Part shown: positions 23,801 to 25,004 of the stretch, in pieces | Position numbering within the stretch: position 1 is the first letter of the stretch | Layout of the letters: each line of letters opens with the position of its first letter | Assembly: GCA_976551045.1 (NCBI GenBank) | Contig: CDPCPM010000003.1 | Coordinates: forward strand, 4,650,001-4,714,000 | Length of the DNA: 64,000 nt | DNA from: Glaucostegus cemiculus | Lineage: Eukaryota | Direction: 5' to 3' | The notes under the pieces: generated by a model | The model's input: the letters and a program-made list of their open reading frames with translations, nothing else | What the model was told of the DNA's origin: nothing | Database searches by the model: none | Position numbers and translations under genes: made by a program

Positions 23801-25004
23801 TTTTGCCTCCCGGTATGAAAATGGGCAAAATAGCCATATTTCATGGACTCTGCGTTGGACATGACGCCTTGTTCGAGCAGGGCGGTTATAACGGGTTTAA
23901 TTCCCGGTTCAGCCTTGTCCGACAGGTGACACTGCTCCATGCATGGCAACGGCGCACGGGTTTTCCATTTAACTTGGAGTGGAGCAGCGGTGAATATTAA
24001 ATCCACATGGTTTTTATATATTGGCCATAAGGTATCAGGCACCTCTCGCAGGAGGAGCGGGAAGAGATTATTTGTCGGTGGGGGAGGTTATAACATCAAA
24101 TATTCGGTATCTCATTCTCATAATAAATCCAGGGTCTGAGGACAGAGGATCGATCTGAAAGGGTCCTGCCTGGGTCGCAACAGTAGCGAGGTAGAGAGTC
24201 ATCTTTGTCTGCAGGGAGCCAAAAGGCTCAGGAATGGCTGGTGACATGACGGCCGGTTGATTTCAGATCGATTGCGGGCAATCTTTCTTCGATTGGCGTC
24301 AATTCTATCTCAGCCCCCATTAACAAGGAACTGAAGAAGATCCGTCCGATGAACTTGATTTCATCTGTCATGGGCGGGCAGGAGTGTGCTTTGGATGCAT
24401 ATACCCCAGTCCCCTGGGTTTAGGTAAACGACGCAGTACCATGGGCACGCTGTCACAGTCTACTTCTGAGGATAAAGTAGATCCGATAGCAAAGGCCCCC
24501 TCACCGAGAGCGAAAGATAAATGCTTTAACGGATTATTCAGCAACTGTTATTGGGCAACTGCTGGCAGGAGAGCACCTCGGCATTTAGTTCCGGGACCGT
24601 TATCGCCCTCCTCTCATGTGCTCTTCCTCGGGCAGCTGGAGGTAAAATCCTTCTTGGGTGAAATGAATTATGGCTCCCAGTTGACAGGGGACCTGCCTTG
24701 CAAGCAGGCTAACAGGGGAATCTTACTGTTATCACAAATTTCTCGTCTAATAATAATGTCCCTATTGTTACGGAGGTTGGTTGGAAGAAAATATCCACCA
24801 TCGGGATTCTGAAACTTCAAAGGCAGAAACAATGTGGGAATAAAGAAAGTGCCATGAAGGGGGTACAGACGGAAGGGTCGCACCAGACTCGGTCAAGATA
24901 TCCACGCATTTTCCACCCAGCTCAACTGATACCATTGTGACATCCTCAGTGTGGGAGAAGAGTGTGATCTTGGCTTCCTGCACCGATATTATCCCGGGCA
25001 CCAC
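20844..25004 (-). pseudogene. pol: ERV pro-pol (protease, extra domain, RT, RNase H, integrase), many stops and frameshifts
   Basis: VDILTESGAT and PVSLLARQVPCQLGAIIHF (protease); GIKPVITALLEQGV, YTVIELYSAF, TWTRLPLGYTE and YADD at 23484-23495 (RT); VFTDCSS and NVYTDSRYTFG (RNase H); PFDNLRIDLVH and PVWKGPNPVL..WTHDTSCK (integrase). Confidence 0.9.
21023..21194 (-). mobile_element. Short CR1 3' end inserted in ERV integrase
   Basis: Perfect 13 bp TSD gtgtaacctggtt at 21010-21022 and 21195-21207. Confidence 0.9.

What the first reader, a model, noticed from the sequence alone, without database searches (positions are those of the whole stretch)
24225..24600. ERV pol carries an extra 2H-phosphoesterase (CNPase-like) domain between protease and RT
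Seen: about 600 bp separate the protease end (..CQLGAIIHF, about 24660) from the RT start (about 24040). One minus frame reads QRAHGTASFT*TQGTGVYASKAHSCPPMTDEIKFIGRIFFSSLLMGAEIELTPIEERLPAIDLKSTGRHVT. It has two HxT motifs (24435-24443 and 24240-24248), in frame and 65 codons apart, with one intervening stop. Established: paired H-x-T/S motifs define the 2H phosphoesterase fold, and IFF...GAEIELT..E.RL...HVT resembles vertebrate CNPase LFV...GARVEL..Q..L...AHIT. I recall 2H domains in some fish retroviral polyproteins, so the concept is not new, but a chondrichthyan example may be undescribed. Inference: the ancestral virus encoded a 2',3'-cyclic or 2',5'-phosphodiesterase, possibly an innate-immune antagonist or a tRNA-primer end-healing enzyme.
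Basis: partly seen in the sequence, partly recalled or inferred. Interest (0 to 1): 0.75.

Follow-up and report, generated by a model that had tools for sequence, protein, structure and literature searches.

The report
Dead retrovirus keeps broken CNPase-like domain
A dead endogenous retrovirus in a cartilaginous-fish genome keeps the broken remains of an extra domain between its protease and reverse transcriptase; better-kept relatives in the same genome show that this domain is likely a CNPase-like two-histidine phosphoesterase, a feature already reported for bony-fish retroviruses whose function has not been tested in any paper I could find.

Summary
The second triplet (24240-24248) is a frame artefact. 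The window's subfamily lost 13 bases that in other copies encode P-H-[VI]-T, and "RHVT" is an out-of-frame reading of A-V-M-S.

The interpretation still mostly holds. The genome has 17 places of this old, dead family. It also has a younger ERV family and at least ten further lineages with the same domain in the same position. An old-family piece matches the younger family's domain (BLASTP E 8e-14). The ERV-domain profile matches vertebrate CNPases across both histidine motifs (hhalign E 2.2e-7; none of 100 column shuffles came near). A protein language model places the domain among 2H families. Synonymous changes dominate between two younger sublineages.

Against this, Pfam, PDB sequence searches and both AlphaFold runs gave nothing, so the fold is not shown. 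The concept is in print for fish retroviruses, and this scan noted it twice before on other DNA. Verdict: new member of a known kind, and the window copy is a wreck.

The parts
24630..24998 (-). Remnant of the retroviral protease, ending in ..CQLGAIIHF..
   Evidence: tblastn with the pro ORF of a related ERV (L063): 29% identity over 129 aa, E 5e-8. Reading.
24088..24629 (-). Decayed remnant of the extra, likely CNPase-like 2H phosphoesterase domain between protease and RT. It is split over three frames by deletions.
   Evidence: Three-frame readings. Codon-by-codon comparison of 16 copies. Family link to the open domain of the younger ERV family. Profile match to CNPases.
24435..24443 (-). 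Motif 1, H-G-T, in the ancestral frame. It aligns with H-C-T of the other ERV lineages and of CNPase.
   Evidence: H-x-T is kept in 14 of 16 copies of the family and deleted in L016 and L017.
24453..24455 (-). TGA stop in the domain frame, 3 codons before motif 1.
   Evidence: The 11 copies of the window's two subfamilies share it; L014, L016 and L017 read L or W at that column (L013 has a deletion there), and L015 has its own stop one column later.
24420..24422 (-). TAA stop in the domain frame after ..SFT. Among the 16 aligned copies it is seen only in the window copy.
   Evidence: L003 and L005-L012 read K here.
24297..24359 (-). IKFIGRIFFSSLLMGAEIELT, a predicted beta-hairpin that aligns with CNPase ..ALFITPRTVGARVLL..
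   Evidence: Local alignments and hmmsearch place it at the same CNPase positions in 6 copies. hhalign agrees. AlphaFold secondary structure of the L017 homologue gives two strands, but at low confidence.
24256..24257 (-). Junction of the 13-base deletion that removed the codons of motif 2 (V-P-H-[IV]-T in other copies). One more base is lost at 24253/24254.
   Evidence: Nucleotide alignments. The deletion is shared by 11 of 16 copies.
24240..24248 (-).
   Evidence: In L003 the A-V-M-S frame runs open into RT.
20865..24087 (-). Remnants of RT, RNase H and integrase of the same provirus.
   Evidence: tblastn with the pol ORF of L063: 31-55% identity in three pieces, E 5e-110. Pfam gives RNase_H E 3.9e-5 and MLVIN_C E 0.0015.

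Best explanation
Window 24088-24629 (minus strand) is the decayed remnant of an extra domain that the pol gene of a class I endogenous retrovirus encodes between protease and reverse transcriptase. This domain is likely a CNPase-like 2H (two-histidine) phosphoesterase, predicted to have cut 2',3'-cyclic phosphate bonds of nucleotides or RNA ends while the virus was alive.

Shown:
- The extra stretch belongs to the virus, not to a later insertion.
- It is homologous to an open, selectively constrained domain of younger ERVs in the same genome.
- That domain family matches vertebrate CNPases at profile level over both catalytic H-x-T motifs.
- In the window copy the domain is dead: two stops, frameshifts, and the second motif deleted.

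Inferred:
- The 2H fold.
- Catalytic activity.
- The substrate.
- Release of the domain from the Pol polyprotein by the viral protease, or its persistence as an N-terminal extension of RT.
For: 1. Part of the virus. There are 17 places in the genome, falling into 7 lineages with 67-100% nucleotide identity, and all carry the stretch. Copy L015 reads protease, domain and RT in one frame apart from two private lesions and one stop.

2. Homology to an intact domain. The old-family piece L017 against the younger family's domain gives BLASTP E 8e-14, 28% identity over 113 aa, including PHVTLAVMPPA against PHLTLAVKPPA. In L064 protease (RVP 20-114), the domain and RT (RVT_1 421-585) lie in one 791-aa open frame.

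3. Breadth. A genome search with that domain gives 47 matches, among them at least 15 places at 28-40% identity in other ERV lineages. H-C-T is kept in 11 of 13 aligned rows of other lineages, and H-L-T in 9 of the 11 rows that cover motif 2.

4. CNPase likeness. hhalign of the ERV profile (A4) against 24 CNPases (A3) gives Prob 93.6%, E 2.2e-7, score 58 over 87 columns running from motif 1 to motif 2. 100 column shuffles gave mean 12.2, maximum 21.5; the reversed alignment gave 13.7. Without the window's family the result is E 1.3e-5. The younger family alone gives E 4.7e-5 and the old family alone E 0.01.

5. Independent method. The ESM Atlas features of the younger family's domain give top hits of 0.95, 0.95 and 0.94. 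16 of the 30 hits fall in the set carrying PF08302 tRNA_lig_CPD (carried by 22% and 63% of the members of the two clusters listed), and one in PF22547 2H-SAK. Both are 2H families.

6. Selection. Between two sublineages of the younger family the domain shows 15 synonymous to 10 non-synonymous single-codon changes, against 22% synonymous expected (binomial P 4.5e-5). Protease is similar at 8:7.

7. Literature. 2H domains are reported in fish retroviruses such as walleye dermal sarcoma virus (passage in PMC9503650). CNPase is reported in ray-finned-fish epsilon-like ERVs (passage in PMC4977317).
Against: - No Pfam family of the 2H clan matches any reading: 0 of 10 single-frame pieces at E<=10, 0 hits on the 791-aa open frame at E<=0.1, and 0 of 24 members of A4 at E<=1.
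- A genome-wide search with Pfam CNPase finds only the host gene, with 3 matches.
- PDB sequence and profile searches give no significant 2H chain. The best was goldfish RICH 2i3e_A, E 1.3, at rank 4.
- BLASTP of the younger domain against a CNPase is not significant.
- Both AlphaFold2 runs failed, with mean pLDDT 39.1 and 31.3, and Foldseek found nothing at E<=0.001. The fold is therefore not shown.
- The window's own piece alone against the other lineages gives E 0.11. Its link rests on its family, not on itself.
- The Atlas 'recognition' value of 1843 is below the 2300 that most known families reach, so that line of evidence is weak on its own.
- The N-terminal third of the domain is not significantly matched between the families.
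- No activity has been measured for any retroviral 2H domain in the papers I could read.
Confidence: 0.75

Rival explanations
1. The domain is a 2H phosphoesterase, but its target is 2',5'-oligoadenylate. It would antagonise the host OAS pathway, as coronavirus ns2, rotavirus VP3 and cellular AKAP7 are reported to do, rather than act as a 2',3'-cyclic phosphodiesterase.
For: The host genome holds OAS1_C matches: a cluster on C278 and one place on C14, 10 matches in all. Viral 2H enzymes of RNA viruses are cited as 2',5'-phosphodiesterases in the reference list of PMC9503650 (Zhang et al. 2013, seen).
Against: The profile likeness found here is to CNPase and, by language-model features, to the tRNA-ligase CPD domain. 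Both are 2',3'-cyclic phosphodiesterases. The AKAP7/ns2 group was not compared. Only two KEN-domain matches were found, and they may be IRE1 rather than RNase L. No assay exists.
Confidence: 0.15
2. The stretch is a long linker or a domain of another, unknown fold, and the H-x-T motifs and CNPase likeness are chance.
For: There is no Pfam, PDB or fold support. Pairs of H-x-T are not rare: 12 of 1020 windows. The old family alone reaches only E 0.01-0.03 against CNPases.
Against: hhalign gives E 2.2e-7, and none of the 100 shuffles scored above 21.5 against the observed 58. The score rises as more lineages are added. Both histidine motifs and the hairpin align in order. An independent method names 2H families. 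The motifs are kept in most lineages and the domain is under purifying selection.
Confidence: 0.08
3. The extra bases are a later insertion, such as a transposon or a recent capture of the host cnp gene, in this copy only.
For: None found. It was considered because the copy is riddled with other repeats: a LINE-like RT lies at 18817-19839 on the plus strand.
Against: The stretch is present in all 17 places of the family and, in the same position, in other ERV lineages. It has no BLAST-level likeness to the host CNPase. The host gene lies elsewhere, on C77, with introns.
Confidence: 0.02

Closest known systems
2H/CNPase-like domains of bony-fish retroviruses: walleye dermal sarcoma virus (Mazumder et al. 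2002, as cited in PMC9503650) and teleost epsilon-like ERVs (Basta et al. 2009, as cited in PMC4977317)
   Same: An added two-histidine phosphoesterase module carried by a class I (gamma/epsilon-like) fish retrovirus. Two earlier notes of this scan (e1-7811984, e1-7858212) place such a domain between protease and RT, as here.
   Different: The host here is a cartilaginous fish. I could not read the two primary papers (not held) or fetch those viral sequences, so direct homology to them, and their exact position in pol, was not tested. PMC4977317 speaks of 'additional open reading frames', whereas here the domain is in frame inside pro-pol.
[quoted passage not shown]
   Same: Both H-x-T motifs match (HCT.. 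and ..H[IL]TLA), as does the F.P...G..V.L hairpin between them, in the same order and with similar spacing. hhalign gives E 2.2e-7 over 87 columns.
   Different: Pfam's model does not match. There is no BLAST-level identity to the host's own CNPase. The loop before motif 2 is about 20 residues shorter. There is no P-loop kinase-like N-terminal half and no C-terminal prenylation tail. This is not a recent copy of the host gene.
tRNA-ligase cyclic phosphodiesterase domain (PF08302) and phage/giant-virus 2H-SAK (PF22547)
   Same: These are the nearest clusters by protein-language-model features for the open domain, with scores 0.93-0.95. Both belong to the 2H superfamily.
   Different: There is no alignment or E-value behind this, and the recognition value is low. 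It is a lead that agrees with the CNPase result, not a placement.
Viral 2',5'-phosphodiesterases of the 2H superfamily (coronavirus ns2, rotavirus VP3 C-terminal domain) and AKAP7
   Same: A 2H module carried by a virus. These enzymes offer a possible role in countering an innate nucleotide signal.
   Different: They were not compared here, as no sequences were at hand. They belong to RNA viruses and are not embedded between protease and RT. The substrate of the ERV domain is unknown.

Membership tests
2H phosphoesterase superfamily | Two H-x-[TS]-x motifs flanked by hydrophobic residues, about 60-90 residues apart | tested here: met
   Relatives carry LHCTA... and PH[LVI]T[LV]A, 62 residues apart in the younger family and about 65 in the window's family. 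All 16 of 16 younger-family copies keep LHCTA and the second H. In the window copy only motif 1 survives; motif 2 is deleted.
2H phosphoesterase superfamily | The 2H fold: two lobes, each giving one H-x-T strand to a common cleft | tested here: inconclusive
   AlphaFold2 gave mean pLDDT 39.1 (L017 piece) and 31.3 (open domain) with shallow alignments. Foldseek on the second model gave no match at E<=0.001. The secondary-structure order of hairpin, short helix and H-x-T strand fits, but at low confidence.
2H phosphoesterase superfamily | Phosphoesterase activity that depends on the two histidines | not testable with these tools
   This needs a bench assay of a natural open copy of the domain.
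CNPase family (Pfam PF05881) | A match to the family's curated model above its gathering score | tested here: not met
   0 of 10 pieces, 0 on the 791-aa open frame and 0 of 24 alignment members. The genome-wide search with PF05881 finds the host gene only. I therefore do not file it as a member of PF05881, only as CNPase-like.
CNPase family (Pfam PF05881) | Profile-level homology over the catalytic core | tested here: met
   hhalign A4 against A3: Prob 93.6%, E 2.2e-7.
Retroviral pol-embedded accessory domain | In frame with protease and RT, present across copies and lineages, and under purifying selection | tested here: met
   One 791-aa open frame in L064. The domain is present in 17 of 17 places of the old family and in other lineages. 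Synonymous to non-synonymous changes are 15:10 against 22% synonymous expected.

The most novel reading that the evidence does not exclude
A CNPase-like 2H phosphoesterase is not an occasional captured gene. It is a long-lived, selectively maintained core module of a whole clade of fish retroviruses, from cartilaginous to bony fishes. It was acquired once, several hundred million years ago, and serves to destroy a host nucleotide or RNA-end immune signal such as 2-5A made by the OAS genes this host carries. That would make it the retroviral counterpart of coronavirus ns2 and rotavirus VP3.
Probability: 0.15. Interest if true: 0.7.

Novelty: new member of a known kind. Interest (0 to 1): 0.35.

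Why it matters
Retroviruses rarely carry extra enzymes in pol; dUTPase is the classic case. A 2H phosphoesterase in fish retroviruses has been noted since 2002, but none of the papers I could search reports an activity, a substrate or a role.

This genome shows that the module is old, widespread among ERV lineages of a cartilaginous fish, and was kept by selection. It also holds natural open copies of the domain that could be expressed and assayed as they stand. That makes the open question, what a retrovirus does with a cyclic phosphodiesterase, directly testable.

The window copy itself adds nothing beyond being one more fossil. It also serves as a caution: one of its two 'catalytic motifs' is a frameshift artefact.

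Tried and rejected
- **Pfam.** Three whole frames, 10 single-frame pieces, one X-bridged reading of L013, the 791-aa open frame and 24 alignment members gave no 2H, CNPase or dUTPase family.
- **PDB sequence and profile searches** gave nothing significant.
- **phmmer of the L013 115-aa ORF against 1.84 billion representatives** gave one hit, a bacterial Ig-repeat protein that I judged spurious.
- **Word-index protein searches.** Those with the RT-start ORF and the open domain found none. The one with the host CNPase exon found 49 proteins, none of them with a retroviral name or retroviral Pfam domains.
- **IMG/VR scan** with the RNase H ORF found none.
- **ESM Atlas** on the old-family piece gave best scores of 0.88, with no family.
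- **Codon-position test among old-family copies** was uninformative, because even the RT control shows no third-position excess. Their divergence is mostly neutral decay.
- **Pairwise Smith-Waterman against the host CNPase** gave p 0.004-0.18 per piece, in the right places but weak. **hmmsearch --max** with a CNPase HMM gave a best score of 3.8 bits.
- **AlphaFold2**, run twice, gave low confidence. Foldseek on the second model found nothing. VIA-align was not tried because no residue reached pLDDT 60.
- **An alignment query** is not accepted for the own genome.
- **Rejected readings:** a later TE insertion, a recent capture of host cnp, and dUTPase.
- **Circular test.** The window piece against A4 (E 1.4e-11) is circular because A4 holds its own family. 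The fair test against A5 gives E 0.11.

Full report
**What is in the window.** On the minus strand, 24998-20865 holds the wreck of the pro-pol region of a class I (gamma/epsilon-like) endogenous retrovirus.
- Pfam sees only weak RNase_H (E 3.9e-5) and MLVIN_C (E 0.0015) in the three frames read with X at stops.
- tblastn with the proteins of a better-kept ERV of the same genome places protease at 24998-24630 and RT, RNase H and integrase at 24087-20865. gag and env give no match.
- The 543 bases between the two, 24629-24088, are the subject of the finding.
- No direct repeats of 60 bases or more (LTRs) were found within 14000-34000.
- The only run of N in the window is 49200-49328, far away.

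**The observation.** H-G-T is at 24443-24435 and H-V-T at 24248-24240, 65 codons apart, with a TAA stop at 24422-24420 between them and a TGA stop at 24455-24453 just before them. A pair of H-x-T at such a distance is not rare. It occurs in 12 of 1020 125-codon windows of the six frames of this window, so the motifs alone prove nothing.

**The copies.** A DNA search of the window's own genome (2.85 Gb) finds 17 places, the window itself included. A protein search finds no further place. They fall into 7 lineages:
- the window's subfamily, 97-100% alike, with one place 100% identical over the 647-base query;
- a second subfamily of eight copies, 99-100% alike;
- five single copies, L013 to L017, which are 67-86% identical to these and to each other.

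All copies are broken. I compared them base by base and codon by codon, with gaps at every broken codon. Three things follow.

1. *The extra stretch is ancestral to the family.* It is not an insertion in one copy. L015 reads protease, the stretch and RT in a single frame apart from two private lesions (a 7-base deletion and a 1-base insertion) and one stop.
2. *The first motif is in the ancestral frame.* H-[GCS]-T, followed by ..SFT.TQ, is kept in 14 of 16 copies and deleted in L016 and L017.
3. *The window's second motif is not in that frame.*
   - Eleven of the 16 copies, both of the window's subfamilies, share a 13-base deletion with its junction at 24256/24257.
   - In L013 and L014 the deleted bases read V-P-H-I-T-R-A. 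In L016 and L017 they read [IV]-P-H-V-T-L-A. In L015 they read V-P-Q-A-T-L-A.
   - The window's 'RHVT' is the shifted reading of the next codons, A-V-M-S, which in L003 run open into RT.

The two subfamilies, L013 and L014 also share three frame-breaking differences from L015. Their common progenitor was therefore already dead when it multiplied. The reading of L015 at the RT junction is the one that matches other ERV lineages.

**First attempts to name the domain failed.**
- Pfam on 10 single-frame pieces at E<=10 found nothing.
- PDB phmmer found nothing.
- phmmer of the 115-aa ORF of L013 against 1.84 billion representatives gave one spurious repeat protein.
- A word-index search, IMG/VR and the ESM Atlas found nothing.
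- Divergence among the old copies carries no codon-position signal even in RT, so it is mostly neutral decay.
- The host's own cnp gene was found on another contig. Its product is closest to CNPases of rays and sharks.
- Against the host CNPase the old-family pieces align in the expected places and order, but weakly: Smith-Waterman p 0.004-0.18 per piece, hmmsearch at best 3.8 bits, and hhalign score 20.3, P 0.031, with 3 of 100 column shuffles as high.
- AlphaFold2 on the longest single-frame piece gave mean pLDDT 39.1.

**The bridge.** A genome search with the C-terminal piece of L015 gave three weak matches in long open frames (E 0.0045-0.0075 genome-wide, 30-31% identity). These belong to a younger ERV family with a 577-aa gag frame. 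In L064, one 791-aa open frame holds protease (Pfam RVP, residues 20-114), about 190 extra residues, and RT (RVT_1, 421-585). The extra residues read ..LHCTAQFT....MYFGPKGIGVTVCL.. and ..IPHLTLAVKPPA...

- The old-family piece of L017 matches this domain at BLASTP E 8e-14, 28% identity over 113 residues. The N-terminal 60-aa piece of L013 does not match (E 0.74).
- A genome search with the open domain gives 47 matches: about 26 places of the younger family (85-100% identity), at least 15 places at 28-40% identity in other ERV lineages, and two old-family places.
- I read 20 of these places and aligned 13 of them with 11 old-family pieces as alignment A4. H-C-T is kept in 11 of the 13 rows from other lineages. 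H-L-T is kept in 9 of the 11 rows that cover the second motif.

**Is it a 2H or CNPase-like domain?**
- *Profile against profile.* A4 against 24 vertebrate CNPases (A3) gives Prob 93.6%, E 2.2e-7, score 58.0 over 87 columns. The alignment runs from the first H-x-T through the F.P...G..V.L hairpin to the second H-x-T.
- *Controls.* 100 column shuffles gave mean 12.2, sd 2.9, maximum 21.5. The reversed alignment gave 13.7.
- *The signal grows with diversity and does not depend on the window's family.*
  - The younger family alone gives E 4.7e-5, and the old family alone E 0.01.
  - The younger plus the old family gives E 1e-5.
  - The other lineages without the old family give E 1.3e-5.
- *Independent method.* The ESM Atlas puts the open domain next to clusters of the tRNA-ligase cyclic phosphodiesterase domain (the set holding 16 of the 30 hits) and of 2H-SAK, with scores 0.93-0.95. 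Its recognition value is low, so this is weak evidence on its own.
- *Against.* Pfam's own models miss the domain in every reading. PDB profile searches give at best goldfish RICH at E 1.3. BLASTP against a CNPase is not significant. AlphaFold2 on the open domain gave mean pLDDT 31.3, and Foldseek on that model found nothing.
- *Conclusion.* Homology to the CNPase catalytic core is supported at profile level. The fold and the activity are not shown. I do not file the domain under PF05881 itself.

**Was it used by the virus?**
- Two sublineages of the younger family differ by 3-5% in the domain.
- Single-codon changes are 15 synonymous to 10 non-synonymous (L066 against L075), where 22% synonymous are expected. 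Binomial P is 4.5e-5, or 0.005 if a third were expected.
- Protease shows 8:7. The pairs share one branch, so this is one observation and not several.
- All 16 full-length copies examined keep LHCTA and the second histidine. Nine of the 16 have no stop in the 200 codons. Six share a stop inside the second motif, another case of a dead copy that multiplied.

**How it most likely worked.**
- *Shown:* the domain is translated as part of pro-pol between protease and RT.
- *Inferred:* it folds as a 2H phosphoesterase whose two H-x-T motifs form the active site. It hydrolyses 2',3'-cyclic phosphates, as CNPase and the tRNA-ligase CPD domain do according to established knowledge of those families.
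- *Rival:* it cuts 2',5'-oligoadenylate like other viral 2H enzymes. The host has OAS-like genes. The two KEN-domain matches may be IRE1 rather than RNase L.
- In the window copy none of this can work. The frame is broken upstream of the first motif, two stops flank that motif, and the second motif is deleted.

**What is known.**
[quoted passage not shown] 2002.
- Passages in PMC4977317 state that ray-finned-fish epsilon-like ERVs occasionally encode CNPase or macro domains, citing Basta et al. 2009.
- Neither primary paper is held, so I know their content only through these citations and from recall.
- The paper on shark ERVs, PMC4422223, does not contain the words CNPase or phosphodiesterase (term search).
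- Searches for CNPase with epsilonretrovirus, for retrovir/phosphodiesterase/Chondrichthyes/endogenous, for 2H phosphoesterase with retrovirus and for walleye dermal sarcoma virus with phosphoesterase found no report for cartilaginous fishes and no functional test.
- Two earlier notes of this scan, on other genomes, describe the same thing: a CNPase-like domain between protease and RT, one of them in a shark. I did not see their sequences.

**Verdict.**
- The kind is known, and the host group is at most a modest extension.
- The useful by-products are two: this genome holds many lineages and natural open copies of the domain, and the domain was under selection.

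Noticed in passing
G000 places behind L005-L012 (eight copies) and L001-L004: Eight copies of the old ERV are 99-100% identical to each other and share every stop and frameshift. The window's own subfamily (97-100% alike) does the same. 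Dead copies therefore multiplied recently, by segmental duplication or by being carried in trans. L001 (C270) is 100% identical to the window over the 647-base query.
   Followed up: partly
L063 (G000:C54:13570500-13580400), about 4238-4353: This younger-family copy has a short tandem duplication around the first H-x-T motif. The same 25 residues appear in two overlapping frames, and the duplication splits pro and pol into two ORFs.
   Followed up: no
L075-L080 (six places of the younger family): Six copies share a TAA stop inside the second catalytic motif (H-*-T). This is again a dead variant that spread.
   Followed up: partly
L016 and L017, after the domain (alignment columns from about 605): Both copies break off at the same point into a shared unrelated repeat. 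L017 then runs into a LINE-like reverse transcriptase (a 258-aa frame).
   Followed up: no
window 18817-19839 (+): Two adjoining open frames of 204 and 135 aa read like a non-LTR (LINE/CR1-like) reverse transcriptase (..FADDT..). They lie next to the 3' end of the ERV remnant.
   Followed up: no
window 27935-28750 (-): Open frames of 183 and 87 aa look like exons of a host gene rather than repeat sequence. They were not examined.
   Followed up: no
G000:C278:1168674-1228063 and C14:42020256: A cluster of at least three OAS-like genes (Pfam OAS1_C, best E 1.6e-26), plus one more place. Only two KEN-domain (Ribonuc_2-5A) matches were found, on C73 and C598, and they may be IRE1 paralogues rather than RNase L.
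   Followed up: partly
G000:C77:2063017-2067013 (-): The host cnp gene. Its catalytic half lies in three exons, and the product is 86% identical to a sawfish CNPase over the last exon.
   Followed up: yes
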